A stretch of DNA of 10,932 nucleotides from a virus (lineage: Duplodnaviria; Heunggongvirae; Uroviricota; Caudoviricetes). Positions 368-10,932 of the stretch are shown piece by piece. The stretch lies in IMG/VR virus record IMGVR_UViG_2671180814_000008. One strand, given 5' to 3'. Position 1 is the stretch's first letter. Each line of letters begins with the position of its first letter. A program made the position numbers and the translations under genes. Below the pieces are notes generated by a model. It searched no databases, had not been told where the DNA came from, and was given only the letters and a program-made list of their open reading frames with translations.

Positions 368-1396
368 TTAAATACTCGCCACATTATACCAAGTGCCATT
401 TATATACTTTTGCACTGGCCTGTAATGAACGCCTGCAATATTATCGGCAGAGTTTTTTCCGGTATCCTGTACGTTAATCCCCGTCAGTACATAGCCTGAC
501 GGGCACTGAAAATTCCATGTTTGCCAGTTGTTCACTCCATAATATTGCTGTGAACCAAGTCGAACATCTTTCACATATCTGGAATCAAAATTGCCATAGT
601 TGCCGGGAATAACTTGCGAGCCGCAAAGCCAGTTCCCGTTATTATCCATGTACGCCTGACCATCGGTGCCATTGGCTGTCCTTGAGTTATTAATCATGTA
701 GATGCCAAATTGCTTATTTCCCAGACCGCCAATCATAAATTTGCGGTCGGCATGGTCCTGACGGAGCAAAGCCTGAGCACCATCAGTGGATACCGCATTA
801 CGTCCCAAAATAACATTCTGGTCACGCATATGAATCCACATGCCGGTACTACTGTTAATTGCAAAACGGTTTGCAAATATATCCCCTGTAACATCAAGAC
901 CATGCCCCATGCTTATCCGGCCAGTTCTGAGATTAAGCGTAAAGGGGCGTAGTGGCCCTATATTACCATTTTCCCCTTCATTCTCTCGTGTAGGGATGAT
1001 ATGCAGGCATTCTTCAGAACGACGAAAAATGGCACCAAAAGATGAATTAAATATCCTCAGTGCATTGACTGTCGATATTTTCACTTCACTGCTGAAAAGG
1101 GCTTCAACAAGAACAGACAAAGCATTCCATTTAAGATTCATCAGGTCTTTAGGCCGGGTGCCAATGATGCGGTGTCTCCATTTGAAATATTCATTGCCGT
1201 TGTTGCCTGTTTCAAACCACATGTAGGAATCGGTGTCTGCATCCGAATTATTTTTAAACCCAATCTTTGCCCAGTCAGTATTTCGAATCCAGGCAAGGAT
1301 TGAGTCGTTTTCAAAAGTAAGTCCACCGGACAACGTATCGCCATTTTTTTGCACGGCGTTACCAGCCTTGTTTACCGTTTCCTGTAAACCGAGGTT
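368..1396 (-). CDS. Phage tail fibre C-terminal variable (receptor-binding) cassette 1, silent: no own N-terminal constant part or RBS
   Basis: ORF track gives 368-1354 from a GTG. The same frame stays open upstream to 1396 and is closed only by a TAA inside the crossover site (1397-1399). Reads [12 protein letters not shown]..., the junction peptide expected of a Mu S-type fibre crossing a gix site. Glycine/asparagine-rich fibre-like composition; C-terminal motifs [15 protein letters not shown] and INGTWYNV are shared with cassette 2. Followed immediately by a tfa gene. Confidence 0.7.
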
Positions 1397-1404
1397 TTAG
1401 ATAA
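1379..1404. other. gix/hix-like 26-bp invertase crossover site, copy 1 (TTCCTGTAAACCGAGGTTTTAGATAA)
   Basis: Two 12-bp imperfect inverted half-sites around a central GA. One mismatch from the phage Mu gixL sequence as I recall it (TTCCTGTAAACCGAGGTTTTGGATAA). Sits exactly at the 5' end of tail-fibre cassette 1. Confidence 0.7.
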
Positions 1405-1576
1405 TGGCCGTTTCCGGCCTGCATGGCATGATTTGCGCTTTTGGACGGGAGATTCAGCGTGCTGATTGGCTATGTAAGGGTATCAACAAATGACCAGAAT
1501 ACAGACCTGCAACGAAACGCTCTTGTTTGTGCAGGATGTGAACAAATATTTGAAGATAAATTAAGCGGAACAAGGA
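1385..1576 (+). repeat. About 190-bp direct repeat, copy 1 (crossover site right part + invertase leader + first ~39 invertase codons)
   Basis: 1385-1568 matches 3081-3264 with 2 mismatches (1409 C vs G, 1415 C vs T) by manual alignment. Copy 1 continues the invertase reading frame (LSGTR) to about 1576 before diverging. Confidence 0.85.
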
Positions 1577-1608
1577 NGAATGGCCACAAAAGCCTGAATA
1601 AAAATTAA
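1459..1608 (+). pseudogene. Truncated serine DNA invertase N-terminal fragment (about 39 invertase codons then unrelated tail, stop at 1606-1608)
   Basis: GTG at 1459 preceded by GGGAG. Encodes [39 protein letters not shown], identical to the start of the invertase at 3155, then X-NGHKSLNKN-stop. Contains the ambiguous base at 1577. Confidence 0.55.
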
Positions 1609-1626
1609 GGCCCGATAGCGGGCCTT
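1597..1626 (-). terminator. Putative rho-independent terminator downstream of tfa (1630-2163)
   Basis: Perfect 8-bp stem AAGGCCCG (1607-1614) / CGGGCCTT (1619-1626) with 4-nt loop. On the minus strand it is followed by AATTTTTATT, starting 3 nt after the tfa stop codon. Confidence 0.5.
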
Positions 1627-1629
1627 CTC

Positions 1630-2163
1630 TCATTCTGGTTGTTCGGGAAACGTTACTGGCAGGCTGGAGGTGTCTGTGGATTCAACCTTCTGCGCATAGA
1701 GCATCCACTCGGTTAATTTTTGTTTATTCTCATCGGAAATGATGCCCAGCTGTAGCTGAGAGTCCCACAGCTGGGTTTTATCCCTGACGAGCTGCAGCAG
1801 GCTCTGCTTTTCATTTTCCGCTTGTTGCCTTTGCTCTTCCTCGGTATAAGTTCGCTTTATCACCGCACCATCTTTGAACATCCAGTTGCCCGAAATATCA
1901 GCCCGGCGATTTGCTGTAATATCAGGCAACTCAACGACACTTAAACCTTCTGGATTAATTGCTGATACATCCTTGTCTATAGCAATAATTATTCCCTCAA
2001 CTGTGTAAGCCAGTTTTATTGTATCCTCCTGAAAGTTTTTTAATTCCTCATGCCAATTTTTTCCATCTTCGGACCATAACCAGATAACATCAAAATTCTT
2101 TGTTAGCTGGTATTGTTCAACGGTTTTTGGATTACCTGCGACAATGTTTTTTAAATGCTGCAT
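1630..2163 (-). CDS. tfa: Tail fibre assembly protein (Tfa chaperone family), complete, 177 aa
   Basis: ORF-track protein [37 protein letters not shown]...[28 protein letters not shown]. The C-terminal W..Y..V.....S.P...P pattern is typical of Caudovirales tail-fibre chaperones. ATG at 2163 lies 2 nt after the TAA ending the cassette 2 reading frame. Confidence 0.85.
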
Positions 2164-2165
2164 GA

Positions 2166-2315
2166 TTATACCTGCGATACGTTATACCATGTTCCGTTAA
2201 TTAACTTTTGTATTGGTCTGAATACTGCCGGATCATCACCATCGACTTCACCGATAATACCAAGCCCCGTGATTACATGGCCTGATTTTTCATACATCAC
2301 GCCTTTCTTCATGGT
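2166..2315 (-). pseudogene. Detached C-terminal 49 codons of tail fibre cassette 2, downstream of an in-frame amber stop
   Basis: Same frame as 2316-3092. After TAG (2318-2316) the frame reads [52 protein letters not shown], which aligns with the C-terminus of cassette 1 (..[21 protein letters not shown]). Confidence 0.45.
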
Positions 2316-3092
2316 CTAAACAACTCGTGTGCCAAGTCTGACATCTCTCACATAGCGGGAATCAAAGTTACCGTAATCCGAGGGATTAACACGTCCCGTA
2401 ATATTTATGGTTTTATTACTTTGAATGCTTCCGGAGACAAAGCGCATAACATGGACGTTATTAGCATAAACATCCAGATTACCATCGCCTTTTTGTTTAA
2501 AGCCCGTGTCATTATCACCCAATACAATCGAATTACCGCCAAGAGCACTGGATGTTCCGATACCCAGTGCACCATTCAGTTGACCACCAGATAACGGCAG
2601 TGCACCAACATCTCCTGCTGAAGGTTTTCTGGTGGTGTAAAATTCGGACCAGTCGGCTTCAAAACCATAACCATCACGGGCTGAACGATAAAAAATACCG
2701 CCATTTTTATAATTAATCCGAAACTGAGCTGCAGGACAACTTCCTTCTCCCATATAAAAATGAATAATTAACGTTGATGCACCACTAATAGTTGCGTTAT
2801 AGGCTCCGCTACTCCAGTTCCATCCAACTGCTTTATCATTCGCAACGGTGCTTCCTGTTTTCCCTAAGGCAAACGCACCAACATGACTTGCTTTTAATGT
2901 GATATCGGAGGAACCATCAAAAGCCACATTGCTTATTTTCCTGGCAGTTTTTAATTTTGCAGCTGTAGAAGCATTGCCGGATAGTTCACCAGAAAGGCCA
3001 CCGCTGAATGTTTGTCGATTAGTCCAGGTATTCGCTGTACTGAGTAACGGTATTTTCTCCCCGCTTGTGCCGAGTTCTCGTAAACCGAGGTT
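2316..3092 (-). CDS. Phage tail fibre C-terminal variable cassette 2, silent; truncated by an in-frame TAG
   Basis: ORF track 2316-2927 (GTG start). The frame is open upstream to 3092 and is closed by a TAA inside the crossover site (3093-3095). Reads NLGLRELGTSGEKIPLLSTANTWTNRQTFSGG...NVAFDGSSDITL..., ending ..[23 protein letters not shown]. Confidence 0.7.
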   Translation of the reverse strand, partial: NLGLRELGTSGEKIPLLSTANTWTNRQTFSGGLSGELSGNASTAAKLKTARKISNVAFDGSSDITLKASHVGAFALGKTGSTVANDKAVGWNWSSGAYNATISGASTLIIHFYMGEGSCPAAQFRINYKNGGIFYRSARDGYGFEADWSEFYTTRKPSAGDVGALPLSGGQLNGALGIGTSSALGGNSIVLGDNDTGFKQKGDGNLDVYANNVHVMRFVSGSIQSNKTINITGRVNPSDYGNFDSRYVRDVRLGTRVV

Positions 3093-3100
3093 TTAGATAA
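3075..3100. other. gix/hix-like 26-bp invertase crossover site, copy 2 (TTCTCGTAAACCGAGGTTTTAGATAA), adjacent to the invertase gene
   Basis: Same architecture as copy 1. The cassette-proximal half differs (TTCTCG vs TTCCTG); the invertase-proximal half is identical. Lies 55 bp upstream of the invertase start. Confidence 0.75.
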
Positions 3101-3264
3101 TGGCGGTTTCTGGCCTGCATGGCATGATTTGCGCTTTTGGACGGGAGATTCAGCGTGCTGATTGGCTATGTAAGGGTATCAACAAATGACCAGAATACAG
3201 ACCTGCAACGAAACGCTCTTGTTTGTGCAGGATGTGAACAAATATTTGAAGATAAATTAAGCGG
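3081..3264 (+). repeat. About 190-bp direct repeat, copy 2 (ends at the assembly gap)
   Basis: Near-identical to 1385-1568. The run of N begins at 3265, exactly where the sequenced part of this copy stops. Confidence 0.85.
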
Positions 3265-3873
3265 NNNNNNNNNNNNNNNNNNNNNNNNNNNNNNNNNNNN
3301 NNNNNNNNNNNNNNNNNNNNNNNNNNNNNNNNNNNNNNNNNNNNNNNNNNNNNNNNNNNNNNNNNNNNNNNNNNNNNNNNNNNNNNNNNNNNNNNNNNNN
3401 NNNNNNNNNNNNNNNNNNNNNNNNNNNNNNNNNNNNNNNNNNNAAAAGGTGACACGCTGGTTGTCTGGAAACTGGATCGCCTCGGGCGAAGCATGAAACA
3501 TCTGATTTCTCTCGTCGGGGAACTACGGGAGCGAGGAATTAATTTTCGCAGTCTGACCGACAGCATAGATACATCTTCTCCAATGGGGCGTTTTTTCTTC
3601 CACGTGATGGGTGCCCTGGCTGAAATGGAACGTGAATTAATTGTTGAACGTACACTGGCCGGACTGGCGGCAGCACGCGCACGGGGGCGCACAGGCGGAC
3701 GTCGACCGAAGCTGACAAAAGAACAGCATGAGCAAATAGCAAGGCTGATCAAAAACGGGCACGACAGAAAACAACTGGCAATAATTTACGGCATTGGTAT
3801 ATCGACGATTTATCGTTACCACCCCGCAGGAGAATCAATCGGAACAATAGAGAAGAGTCAGGAAACAAAATAA
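3155..3873 (+). CDS. Site-specific serine DNA invertase (Gin/Pin/Hin/Cin family), interrupted by an assembly gap
   Basis: GTG at 3155 with GGGAG 7 nt upstream. N-terminus [37 protein letters not shown] contains the family's catalytic-serine motif (YVRVS). After the gap: [70 protein letters not shown]...[19 protein letters not shown], including a Hin-like C-terminal helix-turn-helix; stop TAA 3871-3873. The gap falls where about 10-15 codons are expected to be missing. Confidence 0.9.
3265..3443. other. Assembly gap (179 N)
   Basis: Run of N in the sequence, inside the invertase coding region. Confidence 1.
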
Positions 3874-3900
3874 CCGCTAATCTGACCATTAGCGGTTTTT
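3874..3900. terminator. Bidirectional rho-independent terminator between convergent invertase and gpU-like genes
   Basis: Perfect 8-bp stem CCGCTAAT (3874-3881) / ATTAGCGG (3888-3895) with loop CTGACC, followed by TTTTT on the plus strand and by a T-rich run (TTATTTTGTTT) on the minus strand. Lies between the invertase stop (3873) and the gpU stop (3909). Confidence 0.55.
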
Positions 3901-3908
3901 GTGTTAAA

Positions 3909-4403
3909 TCAGAACAACCCTTTAACTGAACTGGCCGCGCTGTTAAGGGATGATGTTACCTTATCTTTGAAGCCGGACAGCATATCGCTGAACGATGAGG
4001 ATTGCAGGCGCTCCCGCAAATCCTCATCACAGCGTTCAAGAGTCAGTGAAAATTCTATCTTTTTCGCCTTACCGTAGCGATCAAACTCGGAGCGGGTCGT
4101 ATTCGTTTCGGTCAGGACATACATGCCGTAAATCTGCCCGACGCCATCAATCAGAGGCCAGGGTCGTCCTGTATACGCCTGCGTGGTCAGCAGCGACAGC
4201 GACACTTCGCCACCTGTAATTTCAGGATAAAGCACACCAGAAAGAACGATGCGCTCATCACCTGCACCGATATACTGCCAGCTTGCCGAACGGTTAACGC
4301 GTTCATTTTTCACATGCCGCCAGCTTTTGTTTTGCTGTAACTGCTGATGCGGCAATGTACGCAGCTCAAAAACAAACATGCCGTAGATCATCATCATGGC
4401 CAT
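3909..4403 (-). CDS. U: P2 gpU-like tail protein, 164 aa
   Basis: ORF-track protein MAMMMIYGMFVFELRTLPHQQLQQNKSWRH...VLYPEITGG. Immediately downstream of the tape-measure gene, as in P2-type tail operons. ATG at 4403 follows the T stop (4410-4412) with GAGGAG overlapping that stop. Confidence 0.75.
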   Translation of the reverse strand: MAMMMIYGMFVFELRTLPHQQLQQNKSWRHVKNERVNRSASWQYIGAGDERIVLSGVLYPEITGGEVSLSLLTTQAYTGRPWPLIDGVGQIYGMYVLTETNTTRSEFDRYGKAKKIEFSLTLERCDEDLRERLQSSSFSDMLSGFKDKVTSSLNSAASSVKGLF

Positions 4404-4409
4404 GACTCC

Positions 4410-7253
4410 TCAATCTTTATCGTAAAAACTGCCACGCCCGGCACGGGCGCGCCGTTCCATTTCTGCCCTGACCATTTCACCGACCAGTTTCGCCAGTTCG
4501 CGGGGATTCTGCGTAACAACGTTATGCAGATGAACATGAATTTCACCACCAAATCCGGAGGCAACAGGCTCCCGGTTACGGGAAGTTACAGGAACTGATG
4601 CCACTGGAGAGCGTATGGCCTCCGCCACCGGGCGGGAGCTGGCCGCAACAACAGGGACCAGCGCCGGAGGCAGCGGAGCCGGGACCACGGGTGTGATATT
4701 AATTGCGGGGGCAGGCTTACTGACCTGCGCAATCTTCCGCTCCTGCCACTCCCCACGAACAGCAAGTGCGCGGGGCAGGTTCTTAAAGACAATATCGCCG
4801 GGGCCAATGCGTTTTTTCGTCTCATCAACCAGCTTACCTGTGTTATCAGCAATTTTGCTGAGTCTGCGTAGCGTCCCGGTATTGCTGTCTGTGAGCGGTT
4901 TGTTGTCTTTGGGTTTATCACCTCCGGTGCCATTGCCATTTTCCACAGGCTTCGGCGGATTGATTTTCGCCAGGTCCCCCTGAAGCAAGGCAACCTTGTC
5001 CTGAAGAATGGCCGCACGCTGTGCGTCTTCGATTTTCTTGCGCGCCCTTTCCGCTTCATCCGGAAGGACGCCAAGTTTTTCAAGTATCCACGCCAGCGTA
5101 TCCAGTAGCATTTTTGCAGGTGTCAGAACAAGTTGTAACGCACCGCCAAGAACGTTACCGAATATCTCGCCAGCACTGGCACATTTATCCAGCGTTTCCT
5201 TGCTGGACTCCATCGGTGACAGCAGCGATTTAAACCAGTTAAAGACCTGAATAATCCCATCGCGCACGACATCAAAAACAGGGCCAAACCGTTCAAAGGT
5301 TTCGCGCAACGGGGTCAGCCTTTCCATAATCCCGCTGAACACCCCGGCAAAAAATGCCCTGATGGGATCCCAGTATTTCCAGATAAGAACGGCAGCTCCG
5401 GCAAGCGCAGCCACGATAAGACTAACCGGACTGAACAGCGCCCCGATAGCGCCACCAAGTAAAGAAACGGAACCCGTCACCATTCCCCATAATGCAGGCA
5501 GAACCCTGACAACATTCATTGATTCGGTCAGGAGAGAAAAACCGAGACGCAACGTAGCCAGCTTCCCGTGAAGCACCCCAATAACCAGAGACAACGAACC
5601 AACCGTTGCTGTTGTCGCCAGCAGTGCGCCTCCCGCTATCAGTAACTGGCGCGTCAGTGCCGGGTGGGCCTGCGCCAGCGCCGTCACCTTTGAGACAACC
5701 CGCGTGAGCCACTGCGTGACAGAACGCAGCGGACCGTCAACCAGATCACTGATGCGAATACGCAGACCTTCCCATGCACTGCCGAGTGATTTCAGGTTGC
5801 CATCAAGGTTATTGGCCATAACCTTTGCCGTGCGTTCTGCCTCACCGCGCGCGCCTTCAAGTTCTTTTCTCAGTTTGGCTAAGAAGCCGTCACCTGCCGC
5901 ATCAACGAGGCCCATAAATGATGTGAAAGCCTCTTCTCCGGCAATGTCCTTAAAGAACGATACCCGGTCAACCTCCCCGTATTTGCGGGTGGCTTTATAG
6001 AGATCGGCCAGCACATTCTCCATCGGGCGCATTTTGCCTTTGGCGTCAGCAACTGACACCCCCAGCTCTTTCAGTGCTTCTGCCGCTGCCTTTGGCGGTG
6101 ATGACAGATTGGCCAGGCTTTTACGCAACGCTGTACCTGCATCACTCCCCCTGATACCCATCTTCGCCAGCACGCCCGCCATCGCTGCGGCCTGCTCCAG
6201 CGATATTCCCAGCTTACCCGCCACCGGACCTGCATATTTCATGGTTTCGCCCAGTGCGCGAAGGTCAGTGTTGGTACGGGTAAACGCTGCGGTAAGTGTG
6301 TCACCGACCCGGTCCATCTGGTCAGCAGAGAGGCCGAACTGCGTCAGGATATTGGAACCAATATCCGCCGTCTCGCCGAGGTCCATACCGCCAGCCGTTG
6401 CCATGCTCAGCACGCCGGGAAGCGCAGCCTGAATGGCCTGCGGTGTGAAACCAGCCATTGCAAGAAATGCCTGTCCACTGGCGGCATCGCCTGCGGTGAA
6501 CTGCGTTTCAGAGCCAAGTTTTAACGCCTGCTCACGCAGCGCCTTAAACTGCGGGCTGTTTTTATCGATTCGCGTCAGTGCCTGAACACGGGACATCTCT
6601 TTCCCGAACCCGATAGCGGGCTGCAAAAAACGCCCGGCAGCATAGCCGCCCGCTGCCGCCGCACCTGTTGCCAGCGCACCACCTGTTTTCAGTTTTCCCG
6701 CTGTTTCCTGCGCGCGTGAATACCGCTCACGCGCCTGCGTTACACGCGCAAGCGCCCGCCGTTCGCGTTCAAGCTGGTTGTTGTATTGTCCGGTGCGTCT
6801 GATGGCCTGCTGGATGGTGTTATCGCTGCCTGTCAGGGAAATGCCGTGGCGTTTCAGCTCTCCGCCAAGTTCCCGCATTTTCTGAATTTCCCGTGTGCGC
6901 GATTCATTCAGGCGTTCAAGCCGGGTGCTTAACTGCTGCATCAGCTTTTGTTGTTTTTCGCTGAGCACTGTACCCGTGCGTTGTAACTGATTAAGGGCGT
7001 TAAGCTGGCGTCGTGCTTTCACGATGCCCGCATCCGCTTTACTGACAGCGTCACGGGCGCGCTCAAATGAACGCGCCTGACGCTCGAGATTTTTGATCGC
7101 CCCCTGCGTTCGCTGGATGGAGTCACCAAACTGCCCCATCAGGCGGCGGGCGTTTTCGGCAGGCCGGGTCAGCCTGTCAACGGCGCTGAAAGCGACCCGG
7201 ATATCAAGAGTCTTCATTGTCTGCATTCCCGCTGCGAAGTGCCGCCCGCTCAC
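4410..7253 (-). CDS. T: Phage tail tape measure protein (P2 gpT-like)
   Basis: 947-aa ORF. N-terminal half is rich in coiled-coil-like Q/R/E/L repeats, followed by long hydrophobic/glycine-rich segments (..LLIAGGALLATTATVGSLSLVIGVL..) and a proline-rich C-terminal region. Sits between E/E' and U. True start may be an internal ATG (7226 or 7217, MQTMKTL / MKTLDIRVAF) rather than 7253. Confidence 0.85.
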   Translation of the reverse strand: MSGRHFAAGMQTMKTLDIRVAFSAVDRLTRPAENARRLMGQFGDSIQRTQGAIKNLERQARSFERARDAVSKADAGIVKARRQLNALNQLQRTGTVLSEKQQKLMQQLSTRLERLNESRTREIQKMRELGGELKRHGISLTGSDNTIQQAIRRTGQYNNQLERERRALARVTQARERYSRAQETAGKLKTGGALATGAAAAGGYAAGRFLQPAIGFGKEMSRVQALTRIDKNSPQFKALREQALKLGSETQFTAGDAASGQAFLAMAGFTPQAIQAALPGVLSMATAGGMDLGETADIGSNILTQFGLSADQMDRVGDTLTAAFTRTNTDLRALGETMKYAGPVAGKLGISLEQAAAMAGVLAKMGIRGSDAGTALRKSLANLSSPPKAAAEALKELGVSVADAKGKMRPMENVLADLYKATRKYGEVDRVSFFKDIAGEEAFTSFMGLVDAAGDGFLAKLRKELEGARGEAERTAKVMANNLDGNLKSLGSAWEGLRIRISDLVDGPLRSVTQWLTRVVSKVTALAQAHPALTRQLLIAGGALLATTATVGSLSLVIGVLHGKLATLRLGFSLLTESMNVVRVLPALWGMVTGSVSLLGGAIGALFSPVSLIVAALAGAAVLIWKYWDPIRAFFAGVFSGIMERLTPLRETFERFGPVFDVVRDGIIQVFNWFKSLLSPMESSKETLDKCASAGEIFGNVLGGALQLVLTPAKMLLDTLAWILEKLGVLPDEAERARKKIEDAQRAAILQDKVALLQGDLAKINPPKPVENGNGTGGDKPKDNKPLTDSNTGTLRRLSKIADNTGKLVDETKKRIGPGDIVFKNLPRALAVRGEWQERKIAQVSKPAPAINITPVVPAPLPPALVPVVAASSRPVAEAIRSPVASVPVTSRNREPVASGFGGEIHVHLHNVVTQNPRELAKLVGEMVRAEMERRARAGRGSFYDKD

Positions 7254-7733
7254 GCCAGCTAACCACTTCGCCGGGCGTCATCATGAAGATTTCGGCGGGC
7301 GACCAGTTAAAAATGGCGGCAATATCCGCCACAAAGTCTTCTATGTGCTCAAAGCACACAACCGTGATCAGGCTTCCGTCGCCTGTTCGTTCTTCTCGCC
7401 AGAGTCCGCACCGCTCAAAAAATTTACGGCAACCACACATAACTGAATAAAGTCACGGGATGCCATTTTTTTGATCGTCACTTCATCCAGTCGCGGTGAT
7501 GTCACGCGTGACAGCAGCGTAAACATGGATTCCGCTTTCAAATTCAGCACATCAGACAGCGACAAATCTCGCAGAGATCCAGCCTGCTCAATAGCCCCGG
7601 TGATCTCCACATACGTGATTTTTTCGCCGCCTCGCTCAATTGGTTGGGTAAGTTTTACGCCACGCTCACTGGTTTCTTTCACAGTGTCAGCAACGACCGT
7701 GTTTTCGGTATCGATGTTTTTCGTCTCTTTCAT
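7204..7733 (-). CDS. E': Tail assembly chaperone E+E' fusion (P2 gpE' analogue), made by a -1 ribosomal frameshift at 7416-7422
   Basis: The E frame reads ..VVAVNFL..; the -1 frame after TTTTTTG continues FERCGLWREERTGDGSLITVVCFEHIEDF...MMTPGEVVSWRERAALRSGNADNEDS and stops at 7204-7206, overlapping the start of T. This matches the conserved E/E' (lambda G/GT-like) arrangement upstream of tape-measure genes. Confidence 0.6.
7368..7733 (-). CDS. E: Tail assembly chaperone (P2 gpE-like), 121 aa
   Basis: ORF-track protein MKETKNIDTENTVVADTVKE...; ATG at 7733 preceded by AAGGAG with a 7-nt spacer. Lies between the tube and tape-measure genes. Confidence 0.8.
   Translation of the reverse strand: MKETKNIDTENTVVADTVKETSERGVKLTQPIERGGEKITYVEITGAIEQAGSLRDLSLSDVLNLKAESMFTLLSRVTSPRLDEVTIKKMASRDFIQLCVVAVNFLSGADSGEKNEQATEA
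7416..7422 (-). other. Slippery heptamer T-TTT-TTG for the -1 programmed frameshift (E to E')
   Basis: Plus strand CAAAAAA at 7416-7422 is minus-strand TTTTTTG, in the E frame as AAT-TTT-TTG, 15 codons before the E stop. The -1 frame downstream is open for 72 codons. Confidence 0.6.
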
Positions 7734-7787
7734 CAGGAAACTCCTTTCAGTCAGAGGCGACGCACTGCGCCGCCTGCATATTACTTA

Positions 7788-8300
7788 TCAGCCAAGCCCG
7801 AGCGCGGAACGGATGCGATCGGGCACAATGTCCCTGCCGTCCTTCCGGTAAATGAAGTTCAGCAGGTCAATCTCCCACAACGGGCGATCGTTAACACTCA
7901 GCTTGTAGTAGGTGTTTTTAATGGCGTAAGTGTGTGATGTGGCTTCGCCCTGTTTGGCTTCCCCCATATCAATTTCCGTCACACGTCCGCGCATTTCGAC
8001 TTCATACAGGTCGCTTTCAGCGTCGGTGTAGTATTCACCCGCAAAACGCAGCAGCGTACCGTCAATCGTGCCGCCATACTTAAGGAACAGCTCACGAACT
8101 GCGCCCCCCATGACAAAGCTCGCATCAAGCGCGGAGTCATCCAGGCCGAGATCAATACTTACCGCTCCCATCATGCCACCACCCCGGTAGCTGTCGGTTT
8201 TGCGCGTCAGCTTAGGCAGAGTGACGGACGTCACCTTACCCACTTCGTTTTCACCATCCACAAACAGCGTAAAAAAGCGAAGATGTTTTGGTACAGCCAT
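7788..8300 (-). CDS. FII: Phage tail tube protein (P2 FII-like), 170 aa
   Basis: ORF-track protein MAVPKHLRFFTLFVDGENEVGKVTSVTLPKLTRKTDSYRGGGM..., recognised as P2 FII-type. Its ATG overlaps the sheath stop by 1 nt (ATGA); GGGAGG lies 7 nt upstream. Confidence 0.9.
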   Translation of the reverse strand: MAVPKHLRFFTLFVDGENEVGKVTSVTLPKLTRKTDSYRGGGMMGAVSIDLGLDDSALDASFVMGGAVRELFLKYGGTIDGTLLRFAGEYYTDAESDLYEVEMRGRVTEIDMGEAKQGEATSHTYAIKNTYYKLSVNDRPLWEIDLLNFIYRKDGRDIVPDRIRSALGLG

Positions 8301-9484
8301 CAGGCACCTCCCAGCACCGCAAATGCGGGACCAAAGAATTCATCAGTAAACGACTGGTAAAGCTCCATGTCTTCCAGCGGGGGAACAGGCGTATATTTGT
8401 AGCGAATACGCACGCGCCCCTGACGTAAATTCGTGGTGCCGTTATCCACCACGTCATACCAGCACGACGCCCCAATCAGTTTCCCGGCAGTAACCAGTGA
8501 ATCCAGTTTTGCCCTGATGGCACCGATAACATCCTTCACGTTCGCAGGCGTCAGTGGACTGTCGATGGTTTCAAACTGCGCTTCCGCAATTGAATCAGCC
8601 AGCACCTGTGCGGTTCGGGTATACACCTCAAAGATGTAGGCGTTCGTTTCCGGTGTGCGGTTGCCCCAGAAGCGGAACCCGTTGCGACGAATAATGGTCG
8701 TGATTTCTTTGTTGTTGAGGCTGTTGGCATCACTGTCTTCGGCCTGCAACGACCAGAACACATGCCTGGACATCCCCAGCACATTTTTAACCGGAACGTT
8801 GGACAGCGATTTGTGCCAGCCCTGCTCATGGTCAATGTACGCACGAAGGCCGCACGCATAGGCAGGCGCGGGGAACGTTTCGTTTTTGCCACTTTTCGGG
8901 TTGTAGGCGATGAAGTCCGGCCATAAGAGCATCACCTCACGTTCGTTGAATTTCTGGCGGTAGGTAATTGCCTCAGCCATCGTGTTACAGTCATGACATG
9001 AGGCATACACAAACGCGCGCAGTTTACCCGCAATCACGCACAGGGATTTTGTCACCGCCTCCGTGTCCAGCTCCGGCGCGGCCAGAATACGCGGACGGTA
9101 TCCGATGCTTTCATCCTGCTCTGCAACAAGCAGCGCATACATCCCCGTATAGCTGCCGTCAGATTCAGAACCACCGATAACCAGTTGATCCTGCGTTTTT
9201 CCGTCTTCTTCTTTGTGTTCAGCCACGCGAACGACGATCACCTTTGTGCTCACCTGGTCTGCGATGGCCTTAAGCGCACGATAAAGCGTCCCCGTTGTTC
9301 CGCATTTTCCCAGCACGTCATTGACGCGGGGCAGCAGTGTGGGCTTGTTCAGCGGGAACAGCTCCGCGTCCGCATCATCCGCCGTTGCCACGATACCGAT
9401 AACGCTGGAATCAACATCGTTAATCGCTGTTACCAGGTCGGTATTTTCCGTAACACGGGCACCATGAAAACGAGTTTCACTCAT
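8300..9484 (-). CDS. FI: Phage contractile tail sheath protein (P2 FI-like), 394 aa
   Basis: ORF-track protein MSETRFHGARVTEN...FPLNKP...WPDF...EQGWHKSLSNV...GFRFWGNRT...YTPVPPLE, recognised as P2 FI-type sheath. AAGGGG lies 8 nt upstream of ATG 9484. Confidence 0.9.
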   Translation of the reverse strand: MSETRFHGARVTENTDLVTAINDVDSSVIGIVATADDADAELFPLNKPTLLPRVNDVLGKCGTTGTLYRALKAIADQVSTKVIVVRVAEHKEEDGKTQDQLVIGGSESDGSYTGMYALLVAEQDESIGYRPRILAAPELDTEAVTKSLCVIAGKLRAFVYASCHDCNTMAEAITYRQKFNEREVMLLWPDFIAYNPKSGKNETFPAPAYACGLRAYIDHEQGWHKSLSNVPVKNVLGMSRHVFWSLQAEDSDANSLNNKEITTIIRRNGFRFWGNRTPETNAYIFEVYTRTAQVLADSIAEAQFETIDSPLTPANVKDVIGAIRAKLDSLVTAGKLIGASCWYDVVDNGTTNLRQGRVRIRYKYTPVPPLEDMELYQSFTDEFFGPAFAVLGGA

Positions 9485-9641
9485 AGCTTCAACCCCTTGT
9501 ATCCGTTAAATGATTCGGCAACAATCATCACCCACCACGCGCGTAATCTCACCCCTGCGCCATTCTCCCGCCACGGCGACAACAAAAAGCAGTAACCCCC
9601 TCCGCACGCACATGCGACCATGCCACACAGGGAGGGAGCAG
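9485..9641. promoter_or_regulatory. Divergent intergenic region, presumed to hold promoters for the sheath operon (leftward) and the gpD-like gene (rightward)
   Basis: 157 bp non-coding between divergent starts at 9484 and 9642. No clear promoter motif identified. Confidence 0.3.
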
Positions 9642-10751
9642 ATGACCGACACCACCATGCAATTGCTCAGTCAGGGCACAGACCCCGTGAAAATGCCGGA
9701 TTTTGATATTCTCGCGGAGGGTAAAACGCTGTCAGGCGTGGCAGAGCGCCTGATGAGCCTGTCACTGACCGACAACCGGGGATTTGAGGCGGACCAGCTC
9801 ACCATCACGCTGGATGATGCGGATGGTCAGTTGCAGCTACCGCCACGGGGCGCGCGCCTGACGGTTCTCATTGGCTGGAAGGGAGAACCGCTGACAGAAA
9901 AAGGCACTTACATTGTTGATGAAATCGCTCACGAAGGACCGCCGGACAGGCTGACTGTTTCAGCCAGAAGCGCAGATTTTCGGGCTGAATTTAACGTTAA
10001 ACGTGAGGTGTCCTGGCATGATGTGACCGTTGAGCGTGTGGTATCCGCCATCGCTCATCGGTATGGTCTGAAACCGCAAATCAGCGAAATGCTGATGGAT
10101 ATCGAAATCGACCACGCCGACCAGACCGAAGAAAGCGACATGTCCTTCCTTACGCGCATGGCGGAAATGCTGGGCGCAATCACCACGGTAAAAAGCGGTA
10201 ATCTGTTATTCATCATGCCCGGTGGTGGCGTGAACGCACAGGGCCAGCCGTTGCCCTCGTTCGCCATCACACGCAGCAGCGGCGATCGCCATCAGTTCCG
10301 CATTGCTGACCGCGAAGCGTATACGGGGGTACGCGCTTACTGGCTTGATCTTAATTACGGGAAAAAGAAAAAAGTCAGCGTGAAACGCCGCAAACCGTCA
10401 AAACCAAAAAAGGAGAAAAGCAGCAGCCGGGAAGGCGACTATATGGAAGGTGCGGAAGGCAACGTGTTTGTGTTACGCAAAACTTATCAGAACGAGCAGG
10501 CAGCAAGACGTGCAGCGGCGGCAAAGTGGCAGCAGCTACAACGCGGAGCCGCATCATTCTCCATCACACTGGCGCATGGACGTGCAGAACTCTACCCCGA
10601 AATGCATGGCACGGTAACAGGATTTAAAAGCGAGATTGATAATCAGGACTGGATTATTGCAAAAGCCGAGCACACCATTGATAACAGCGGCTTTACCACG
10701 CAGCTTGAGCTTGAGGCAAAAATCCCGGAATGGATAGCAGAAACAGAGTGA
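9642..10751 (+). CDS. D: P2 gpD-like tail protein (phage late control D / Phage_GPD family), about 370 aa
   Basis: The ORF-track frame is open from 9510, but ATG 9642 is preferred because GGAGGGAG sits 3 nt upstream. Protein MTDTTMQLLSQGT...LSLTDNRGFEADQLTITLDDADGQLQLPPRGARLTVLIGWKG... with a central lysine-rich linker (KKKKVSVKRRKPSKPKKEK), as in gpD-type proteins. Confidence 0.75.
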   Translation: MTDTTMQLLSQGTDPVKMPDFDILAEGKTLSGVAERLMSLSLTDNRGFEADQLTITLDDADGQLQLPPRGARLTVLIGWKGEPLTEKGTYIVDEIAHEGPPDRLTVSARSADFRAEFNVKREVSWHDVTVERVVSAIAHRYGLKPQISEMLMDIEIDHADQTEESDMSFLTRMAEMLGAITTVKSGNLLFIMPGGGVNAQGQPLPSFAITRSSGDRHQFRIADREAYTGVRAYWLDLNYGKKKKVSVKRRKPSKPKKEKSSSREGDYMEGAEGNVFVLRKTYQNEQAARRAAAAKWQQLQRGAASFSITLAHGRAELYPEMHGTVTGFKSEIDNQDWIIAKAEHTIDNSGFTTQLELEAKIPEWIAETE

Positions 10752-10932
10752 GCAACTTAAATGTATTAACTCAGAACGGATCAACACACTCACAACATAG
10801 AGTCAATATAGCTGCTCGCTTTGTTCCAGCAAGGATGCCTATTTCTAAGGAAAAACAGAGCAGAAACATATGGTGTTTTCCTACCTGACATCAGGGGTGG
10901 TAGACTGGCCCCCTGAATCTCCAGACAACCAG

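What the first reader, a model, noticed from the sequence alone, without database searches (positions are those of the whole stretch)
3909..10751. Sheath-to-gpU block is inverted relative to its flanks compared with canonical P2 gene order
In P2-type phages as I know them, the order is fibre H, tfa G, then FI, FII, E/E', T, U, D, all on one strand. Here the FI-FII-E-T-U block is on the minus strand, while the fibre cassettes sit beyond the gpU end and the gpD-like gene sits on the opposite strand, divergent from FI. The invertase converges on gpU. Flipping 3909-9484 alone would restore the canonical order. This is either a genuine rearrangement that separates D from its usual operon (D would then need its own promoter in 9485-9641), a different lineage-specific layout, or a scaffolding error.
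Basis: partly seen in the sequence, partly recalled or inferred. Interest (0 to 1): 0.55.

Follow-up and report, generated by a model that had tools for sequence, protein, structure and literature searches.

The report
Normal gene order of P88-like phages
The "inverted" sheath-to-gpU tail block is real, but it is the standard, conserved gene order of a large branch of P2-like phages (P88, phiSM, SEN5 and over a thousand E. coli prophages), not a rearrangement or an assembly error.

Summary
U, T, E/E', FII and FI lie on the minus strand (3909-9484). gpD (9642-10751) diverges from FI, and a Gin/Pin-type invertase (3155-3873) converges on U. P2 itself has H-G-FI-FII-E-T-U-D-ogr on one strand.

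The layout is not an anomaly:
- It is the normal map of the plaque-forming phages P88, P884B11 and phiSM (Xuanwuvirus) and SEN5 (Senquatrovirus).
- The FI|D junction is intact in at least 1109 of 5426 complete E. coli genomes.
- All 162 classifiable related loci, from about 15 enterobacterial genera, show it (gpD identity 59-99%).
- Phages with gpD at 53% identity or less (P2, Cartapus) keep the canonical order.

No inverted repeats or invertase crossover sites flank the block, and both junctions lie in gap-free sequence.

The FI-D spacer carries a conserved P2-type activator dyad, T(C/G)T-N12-ACA, at 9564-9581. A -10-like hexamer sits 46 nt from its centre on each side. This matches the geometry of P2's shared pP/pO site, so D probably has its own Ogr-dependent promoter. 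That part is inferred, not shown.

Verdict: already known and ordinary. Separately, the invertase contains a 179-N assembly gap next to an odd tandem fibre-cassette duplication.

The parts
3155..3873 (+). Gin/Pin/Hin-type serine DNA invertase that converges on gpU. It is interrupted by a 179-N assembly gap at 3265-3443.
   Evidence: Pfam Resolvase and HTH_7 match both halves, and PHROG 125 is a DNA invertase. In an alignment with the P88 and FDAARGOS_943 invertases, the N-run replaces 48 nt.
3872..3897 (.). Hairpin terminator readable on both strands, between the convergent invertase and gpU.
   Evidence: The terminator scan finds a 10-pair stem followed by a T-run on both strands. It also appears as inverted repeat I8.
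3909..4403 (-). gpU tail protein, the last gene of the leftward FI-U operon.
   Evidence: Pfam Phage_P2_GpU, 132 bits. 99% identical to P88 gp44 by tblastn.
4410..7217 (-). gpT tape measure protein. The ATG is at 7217; the open frame extends upstream to a GTG at 7253.
   Evidence: Pfam PhageMin_Tail, 195 bits. Relatives are annotated at 2808 nt. The ATG at 7217-7215 is visible in the sequence.
7204..7733 (-). gpE (7368-7733) and the E+E' -1 frameshift product. The slippery T TTT TTG lies at 7422-7416, and the E' frame ends at 7204, overlapping the T start by 14 nt.
   Evidence: PHROG 103 and PHROG 1756, Pfam Phage_P2_GpE, and the slippery heptamer read directly from the sequence. The P2 record annotates the same device.
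7788..8300 (-). gpFII tail tube.
   Evidence: Pfam Phage_tube, 158 bits.
8300..9484 (-). gpFI tail sheath, the first gene of the leftward operon.
   Evidence: Pfam Phage_sheath_1, Gp18_domIII_N and Phage_sheath_1C. PHROG 23.
9485..9641 (.). Divergent FI<>D control region, 157 bp.
   Evidence: Sequence. Alignment across 21 lineages shows conserved blocks within otherwise diverged sequence.
9564..9581 (.). Candidate Ogr/Delta-type activator dyad TCT-N12-ACA (TCTCCCGCCACGGCGACA), followed by ACAAAAA. Its centre is at 9572.5.
   Evidence: It is the only one-mismatch match to TGT-N12-ACA in the spacer. A T(C/G)T-N12-ACAA(C/T) site sits at the same place in 90 of 95 distinct spacers, with a variable N12 and a canonical TGT in the more distant members. 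The same motif lies in P88's P<>O spacer.
9524..9529 (-). Inferred -10-like hexamer GATGAT for the FI promoter. Its centre is 46 nt from the dyad centre, and the predicted transcription start is near 9517.
   Evidence: The A2, A5 and T6 positions are almost invariant in the dyad-anchored profile of 86 distinct sequences. The geometry is compared with P2.
9613..9621 (+). Inferred extended -10-like element TGcGACCAT for the D promoter. The hexamer centre is 46 nt from the dyad centre, and the predicted transcription start is near 9628.
   Evidence: The conserved pattern is TG-n-(G/A)A(T/C)C(A/C)T, and A2 is the best-conserved position on this side.
9642..10751 (+). gpD (baseplate hub / late control D), divergent from FI.
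   Evidence: Pfam Phage_GPD and PHROG 52. 99% identical to P88 gpD and 50% to P2 gpD.

Best explanation
The window is the tail end of a P88-like (Xuanwuvirus-type) P2-family prophage, and its gene order is the normal one for that lineage. An ancestor of a large enterobacterial branch of Peduoviridae fixed an inversion of the FI-FII-E/E'-T-U segment, and all its descendants inherit it. Their order is ...V W J I H G [optional invertible fibre cassettes and invertase, or other cargo] on one strand, then U-T-E'-E-FII-FI on the other strand, then D-ogr on the first strand again. The block is not mobile today, is not a substrate of the neighbouring invertase, and is not an assembly artefact. Inferred mechanism: the 157-bp FI<>D spacer works as a bidirectional late control region. 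A single Ogr/Delta-type activator dyad (9564-9581) lies about 55.5 nt upstream of both predicted starts, near 9517 leftward for FI-U and near 9628 rightward for D and, in relatives, ogr. This is how P2's pP and pO share one site. If so, the inversion carried the pF activator site next to D, so D could stay under late control after losing its place at the end of the F operon.
For: Shown:
- The whole window is collinear at 93-96% identity in 353 complete E. coli genomes and in phages 520873, phiSM, 503458, P884B11 and P88.
- The annotated maps of P88, an E. coli TW10828 prophage, an O104:H4 prophage that lacks the invertase, phiSM and SEN5 all show U-T-E-FII-FI opposite to D.
- A probe spanning the FI|D junction is covered at 80% or more in 1109 genomes. 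The O157:H7 genomes listed in the sampled rows also span it, at 78% coverage.
- A probe spanning the invertase|U junction is intact in 622 genomes.
- 19 of 19 loci with enough flank, from other genera, are inverted: Salmonella, Citrobacter, Klebsiella, Enterobacter, Erwinia, Pantoea, Edwardsiella, Brenneria, Rouxiella and others. So are 102 of 102 and 162 of 162 classifiable loci, with gpD identity 59-99%.
- P2 (gpD 50%) and Cartapus (gpD 52.8%, invertase directly before FI) are canonical. Among the sampled rows of the phage collection, gpD identity drops from 62.5% to about 53% with nothing between.
- P88 and phiSM are viable, plaque-forming temperate phages (PMC5285337, PMC6456863).
- No inverted repeats flank the block. 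The only two gix-like sites are at 1379 and 3075. The only non-ACGT positions are 1577 and 3265-3443.

Support for the inferred promoter model:
- The dyad is conserved in 90 of 95 distinct spacers while its N12 varies.
- The -10-like hexamers lie 46 nt either side of the dyad centre. In P2, the pP/pO site is centred 55.5 nt from both mapped starts, and the pF hexamer lies 47 nt from its dyad.
- An ogr-like gene follows D on the same strand in 161 of 161 related loci that have a hit.
Against: - Within the papers I could search, none explicitly describes the inversion. 'Known' therefore rests on deposited and classified genomes, not on a published statement.
- The promoter model has no transcript data behind it.
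- The window's dyad has TCT rather than TGT.
- The exact TGT-N12-ACA pattern is absent from the spacer.
- The sigma-70 consensus scan finds no promoter in the spacer. That is expected for activator-dependent promoters, but it gives no support.
- The motif is not over-represented genome-wide in P88: 5 found against 3.5 expected.
- No ogr lies in the 181 nt after D in this window, which diverges from relatives at about 10763.
Confidence: 0.9

Rival explanations
1. Scaffolding or assembly error: the FI-U block was joined in the wrong orientation in this assembly.
For: The window does come from a gapped assembly. A 179-N run at 3265-3443 replaces 48 nt of the invertase, and there is an ambiguous base at 1577. 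The gap starts exactly where a 190-nt repeat ends.
Against: Both proposed junctions (3874-3908 and 9485-9641) lie inside one uninterrupted stretch, 3444-10932. They have the same structure in 622 and at least 1109 complete genomes respectively and in sequenced phage genomes. The gap lies 466 nt outside the block, and the join across it also matches the relatives.
Confidence: 0.01
2. A recent, strain-specific rearrangement in a decaying prophage that uncoupled D from its operon.
For: Some relatives are visibly degraded, with IS100 insertions, a frameshifted J and a truncated D in O157:H7. The fibre region of this window is unusual.
Against: The same order occurs at gpD identities down to 59% in many genera and in infectious phages (PMC5285337, PMC6456863). 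All seven tail reading frames in the window are intact and match full-length Pfam models. The E/E' frameshift signal is preserved.
Confidence: 0.02
3. Programmed inversion: the adjacent serine invertase flips the 5.6-kb FI-U block as a large invertible segment.
For: An invertase gene abuts the block and converges on U.
Against: No gix/hix-like crossover site and no inverted repeat lies at either end of the block. The only two sites are at 1379 and 3075, left of the invertase. Lineage members without any invertase have the same order (O104:H4 prophage, SEN5). Cartapus has an invertase and the canonical order. None of 162 loci shows the alternative orientation.
Confidence: 0.01
4. The layout is lineage-normal, but D is not driven by a shared Ogr dyad. 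Instead it has an independent, possibly constitutive or differently regulated, promoter, or two separate activator sites serve FI and D.
For: The D-side hexamer GACCAT is a weak -10 in the window. The predicted start leaves only about 14 nt of leader. The TG-n extended -10 element could allow activator-independent initiation. Five of 95 spacers lack the strict motif.
Against: The spacer contains only one conserved dyad. Both hexamers are placed symmetrically 46 nt from it across lineages whose spacer sequence has otherwise diverged. The geometry matches P2's experimentally annotated shared pP/pO site.
Confidence: 0.25

Closest known systems
Escherichia phage P88 and Xuanwuvirus P884B11 (Peduoviridae, genus Xuanwuvirus); Citrobacter phage phiSM
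   Same: Same gene order over the whole window: fibre cassettes, invertase(+), U-T-E'-E-FII-FI(-), D(+). Nucleotide identity is 92-96% over 76-84% of the window, and the tail proteins are 96-99% identical.
   Different: The window has an extra tandem fibre cassette with a truncated invertase copy (1379-3264) and an assembly gap. The sequence after D diverges, so ogr is not seen within the window.
Salmonella phage SEN5 / SEN4 (genus Senquatrovirus)
   Same: Same inverted FI-U block with a divergent D. gpD is 62.5% identical, and the spacer dyad is TGT-N12-ACA.
   Different: It has no invertase or invertible cassettes, so G converges directly on U. It is much more diverged.
Bacteriophage P2 F operon (pF: FI FII E E' T U D, then ogr)
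   Same: Same seven tail genes in the same internal order, the same E/E' T6G frameshift device, and an Ogr-type activator dyad upstream of FI at the same distance from the -10.
   Different: In P2, D is the last gene of the operon, its start overlaps the U stop, and everything is on the H-G strand. Here FI-U is inverted and D stands alone. Protein identity is only 32-50%.
Escherichia phage Cartapus (genus Elveevirus)
   Same: A P2-like phage with a Gin-like invertase and alternative fibre cassettes immediately after G.
   Different: The invertase is followed by FI-FII-E-T-U-D-ogr in the canonical orientation. This is exactly the order obtained by flipping 3909-9484. gpD is 52.8% identical.
P2 divergent pP/pO late promoters sharing one activator-binding site
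   Same: One dyad lies between two divergent late operons, equidistant from both. In P2 it is 55.5 nt from each mapped start. Here the -10-like hexamers lie 46 nt either side, which predicts starts 55.5 nt away.
   Different: The P2 site is experimentally annotated. The FI<>D site here is inferred only from conservation and geometry.

Membership tests
P2-type contractile tail module (Peduoviridae) | Presence of sheath FI, tube FII, chaperones E and E+E', tape measure T, gpU and gpD | tested here: met
   Pfam matches above the gathering score for six of them, and PHROG 103 for E.
P2-type contractile tail module (Peduoviridae) | Programmed -1 frameshift between E and E' at a T TTT TTG slippery site, with E' overlapping the start of T | tested here: met
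   The heptamer at 7422-7416(-) lies in the E zero frame, and a -1 shift enters the 7440-7204 frame. There is a 14-nt overlap with the T ATG at 7217. The P2 annotation is given for comparison.
Canonical P2 F operon | FI-FII-E-T-U-D co-oriented with H-G and transcribed as one unit from pF | tested here: not met
   FI-U lie on the minus strand and D on the plus strand, divergent from FI.
P88-like lineage (Xuanwuvirus and allied genera) | Gene order G / (cargo or invertase) / U-T-E'-E-FII-FI on the opposite strand / D-ogr | tested here: met
   Identical order in P88, phiSM, SEN5 and the E. coli prophages, and in 162 of 162 loci. ogr itself lies outside the window or is absent.
Genus Xuanwuvirus (ICTV genus demarcation, recalled as about 70% nucleotide identity over the whole genome) | Genome-wide nucleotide similarity to Xuanwuvirus P88 | tested here: inconclusive
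   Only 10.9 kb is available. It matches P88 at 95.7% over 76% of the window and P884B11 at 93.3% over 80%. The rest of the genome cannot be seen.
Ogr/Delta-dependent P2 late promoter | Partial dyad TGT-N12-ACA centred about 55 nt upstream of the transcription start | tested here: met
   TCT-N12-ACA at 9564-9581, one mismatch. It is conserved in 90 of 95 spacers, with TGT in the distant members. The distance to the -10-like hexamers equals that in P2. Transcription starts are predicted, not mapped.
Ogr/Delta-dependent P2 late promoter | Transcription depends on the phage zinc-finger activator | not testable with these tools
   An ogr-like gene follows D in 161 of 161 related loci with a hit, but none is in the window, and dependence requires an experiment.
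Gin/Cin/Pin/Hin invertible tail-fibre segment | Serine recombinase with a Resolvase catalytic domain and a C-terminal HTH | tested here: met
   Pfam Resolvase and HTH_7. The middle 48 nt is hidden by the N-run.
Gin/Cin/Pin/Hin invertible tail-fibre segment | Two crossover sites in inverted orientation bracketing the alternative cassettes | tested here: inconclusive
   Two 26-bp gix-like sites are found (1379-1404 and 3075-3100), but they are in direct orientation. The inverted partner, expected inside gene H, would lie left of the window.

The most novel reading that the evidence does not exclude
The FI<>D spacer of the P88/SEN5 branch is a second bidirectional Ogr-dependent control region, besides pP/pO, created when the ancestral inversion carried the pF activator dyad next to D. 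One activator dimer site would then switch on the FI-U operon leftward and D-ogr rightward, which puts ogr under positive feedback. This would be a worked example of how an operon-splitting inversion is rescued by re-using an existing activator site.
Probability: 0.55. Interest if true: 0.25.

Novelty: already known. Interest (0 to 1): 0.1.

Why it matters
It matters mainly as a calibration point. A departure from the textbook P2 map is not evidence of rearrangement or misassembly. The inverted sheath-to-U order is a clade marker that separates the P88/SEN5 branch (gpD at least about 59% identical to this one) from P2, 186-type and Elveevirus phages, and it is present in roughly a fifth of complete E. 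coli genomes. For annotation pipelines it explains why D and ogr appear 'orphaned'. It also flags two public annotation slips: phiSM's shifted product names and P88's unannotated ogr. The conserved bidirectional spacer gives a concrete, cheap target for anyone studying P2-type late gene control.

Tried and rejected
- An exact TGT-N12-ACA search found nothing in the spacer. Only after aligning diverged relatives did the T(C/G)T-N12-ACA dyad become clear.
- The sigma-70 consensus scan found no promoter in 9485-9641. This is uninformative for activator-dependent promoters.
- Counting the extended motif across the P88 genome showed no enrichment: 5 against 3.5 expected. The argument therefore rests on position and conservation, not frequency.
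- Searches for inverted repeats or gix-like sites at the block ends were negative, which rules out invertase-driven flipping.
- The low G+C at 3000-3750 looked like foreign DNA but is an artefact of the N-run.
- Literature searches (Xuanwuvirus; P2-like plus P88; P2-like plus inversion plus gene order; Peduoviridae plus synteny; P2-like prophages) found no paper that discusses the inversion. The hits in the Burkholderia P2-like paper concern IS elements and references.
- Two Pfam calls failed because of wrong frames around the N-run and were repeated.
- I did not locate the exact phylogenetic boundary between inverted and canonical layouts. I established only that it falls between about 59% and 53% gpD identity.

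Full report
**What is in the window**

- On the minus strand: gpU (3909-4403), tape measure T (4410-7217), the chaperone pair E (7368-7733) and the E' frame (7204-7440), tube FII (7788-8300) and sheath FI (8300-9484).
- On the plus strand: gpD (9642-10751) and a serine invertase (3155-3873).

The E/E' pair keeps the P2-type slippery T TTT TTG at 7422-7416, and E' overlaps the T start by 14 nt. A hairpin terminator that reads on both strands (3872-3897) separates the convergent invertase and U. Left of the invertase lie tail-fibre C-terminal cassettes and fibre-assembly genes, all on the minus strand.

The P2 reference record shows H, G, fun(Z), FI, FII, E, E', T, U, D, ogr with all late genes co-oriented. 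The statement that flipping 3909-9484 would restore the P2 order is therefore correct.

**Is it an anomaly?**

No. The whole window aligns collinearly at 93-96% identity in 353 complete E. coli genomes. It also aligns to sequenced phages: 520873, Citrobacter phiSM, 503458, Xuanwuvirus P884B11, P88 and others.

The annotated maps all read the same way: ...H G (+), optional cargo or invertase, U T E' E FII FI (-), D ogr (+). These maps are:
- P88
- an E. coli TW10828 prophage
- an O104:H4 prophage that has an acetyltransferase instead of the invertase
- phiSM
- Salmonella phage SEN5

Junction probes agree. A 1.3-kb probe across FI|D is covered at 80% or more in 1109 of 5426 genomes. The O157:H7 genomes listed in the sampled rows also span the junction, with a truncated D. 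A probe across invertase|U is intact in 622 genomes.

P88 and phiSM are infectious, lysogenising phages (PMC5285337, PMC6456863), so the order is compatible with a working tail.

**How far does the layout extend?**

I searched one genome per species with gpD. This returned 22 loci, from Salmonella, Trabulsiella, Edwardsiella, Kluyvera, Erwinia, Enterobacter, Mixta, Pantoea, Kosakonia, Citrobacter, Izhakiella, Brenneria, Klebsiella and Rouxiella. All 19 loci with enough flank have FI-U opposite to D.

Two scans of viral contigs raised the count to 102 of 102 and then 162 of 162 classifiable loci, with gpD identity to the window of 59-99%. Some contigs were fetched twice in the second scan.

Among the sampled rows of the phage collection, gpD identities drop from 62.5% (SEN5, inverted) to about 53% with nothing between. 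On the far side of that gap, Cartapus (52.8%) and P2 (50%) are canonical.

The inverted order is therefore an old trait that marks a clade spanning at least the genera Xuanwuvirus and Senquatrovirus.

**Rivals**

*Assembly error.* The window does contain a gap, a 179-N run at 3265-3443, but it lies inside the invertase gene. The join across the gap also agrees with the relatives.

*Invertase-driven flipping.* The only two gix-like crossover sites are at 1379-1404 and 3075-3100, and no inverted repeat brackets the block. Lineage members without an invertase have the same order.

*Recent decay.* All the tail frames are intact and full length.

**How D is probably expressed (inferred)**

Aligning the FI-D spacer from 21 lineages shows islands of conservation in otherwise diverged sequence.

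The strongest island is T(C/G)T-N12-ACAAC. It is present at a constant position in 90 of 95 distinct spacers. The N12 varies freely, and the more distant members carry the canonical TGT. In the window it is TCTCCCGCCACGGCGACA at 9564-9581. This is the P2 late-promoter activator dyad. P2's annotated sites for pF and pP/pO read TGT-N12-CCA.

I anchored 86 distinct spacers on the dyad. This reveals two -10-like hexamers whose best-conserved positions are A2 and T6:
- GAT(G/T)AT on the minus strand (window 9529-9524)
- TG-n-(G/A)A(T/C)C(A/C)T on the plus strand (window 9613-9621)

Each hexamer centre lies 46 nt from the dyad centre. In P2 the pF hexamer lies 47 nt from its dyad. The single pP/pO site is centred 55.5 nt from both mapped starts. 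The same spacing here predicts starts near 9517 for FI and near 9628 for D.

P88's own P<>O spacer carries TCT-N12-ACAACAAAA, nearly the same extended motif. An ogr-like gene follows D on the same strand in 161 of 161 related loci with a hit.

Together these suggest one activator site serving both directions, so the inversion left D under late control. The caveats are:
- there are no transcript data
- the window's dyad has one mismatch
- the generic promoter scan is silent
- the motif is not enriched genome-wide

**Comparison and novelty**

The element is a member of the P2-type tail module. It fails the 'canonical F operon' order test and matches the P88/SEN5-type order in every respect that could be tested.

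This order is visible in deposited, ICTV-classified phage genomes and in over a thousand finished bacterial genomes, so I rate it as already known. I found no paper in the searchable library that comments on it. The bidirectional-promoter reading is a modest new inference about a known kind of control region.

**Verdict**

- The 'lineage-specific layout' reading is correct.
- Interest is low.

Noticed in passing
window 3265-3443: A run of 179 N inside the invertase gene. Alignment with the P88 and FDAARGOS_943 invertases shows it stands for only 48 nt, so it is an assembly or scaffold gap of arbitrary length rather than in-place masking. It also puts the two halves of the gene out of frame. 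It caused the apparent 30% G+C dip in the composition profile.
   Followed up: yes
window 1379-1568 and 3075-3264: A 190-nt direct repeat, 98% identical, comprising a 26-bp gix-like crossover site plus the first 38 or so codons of the invertase. The first copy is truncated and runs into unrelated sequence with a terminator-like hairpin. The result is two tandem units of 'fibre-assembly gene, fibre C-terminal cassette, gix site, invertase 5' end'. The N-gap begins exactly where the repeat ends. No complete E. coli genome holds 1150-3264 collinearly: 0 of 5426 reach 80% coverage. This is either a real recombination product or a mis-assembly of an invertible segment.
   Followed up: partly
window 1578-3106: The second fibre cassette and its assembly gene are 98.8-98.9% identical to the invertible tail-fibre region of a lambdoid prophage (gpJ, lom, stf, tfa) in E. 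coli NCTC86. Other fibre parts match Mu, D108, P1/P7 and SfMu. This illustrates cassette exchange between unrelated phage types.
   Followed up: partly
window 1577: A single ambiguous base (N) in the sequence just after the truncated invertase copy, consistent with a draft-quality assembly.
   Followed up: no
window 10763-10932: The sequence after the D stop diverges from nearly all relatives, whose alignments end near 10762. It does not encode the Ogr-like zinc-finger protein that follows D within about 45 nt in 161 of 161 related loci with a hit. The D-ogr gap is a cargo site in at least one relative: the O104:H4 prophage carries a DUF3800 gene there.
   Followed up: partly
L006 (Citrobacter phage phiSM, OR565851.1) 26394-28845: The GenBank product names are shifted by one gene. 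The sheath gene is labelled 'late control gene D protein', and gpD is labelled 'ogr/Delta-like zinc finger family protein'. tblastn places FI at 26397-27578 and D at 27736-28842, and the real ogr at 28888-29145 is not annotated.
   Followed up: yes
L001 (phage P88, NC_026014.1) 34476-34733 and 33155-33286: P88's RefSeq annotation lacks the ogr-like gene, which tblastn finds at 34476-34733 (98.8% identical to the E. coli prophage Ogr). It also calls a 43-aa 'hypothetical protein' inside the FI<>D control region.
   Followed up: partly
L008 (Vagococcus sp. WN89Y contig) and L025 (Planococcaceae MAG UBA3378 contig): Assemblies labelled as Firmicutes carry this enterobacterial prophage at 97-98% protein identity. 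In L008 the complete FI-U/D module sits on a 226-kb contig. This most likely reflects contamination or mislabelling of those assemblies.
   Followed up: no
L002 (E. coli TW10828) 7141-8942; phage records 520873 and 503458: IS100 (istA/istB) is inserted in the tail-gene region of several otherwise close relatives.
   Followed up: no
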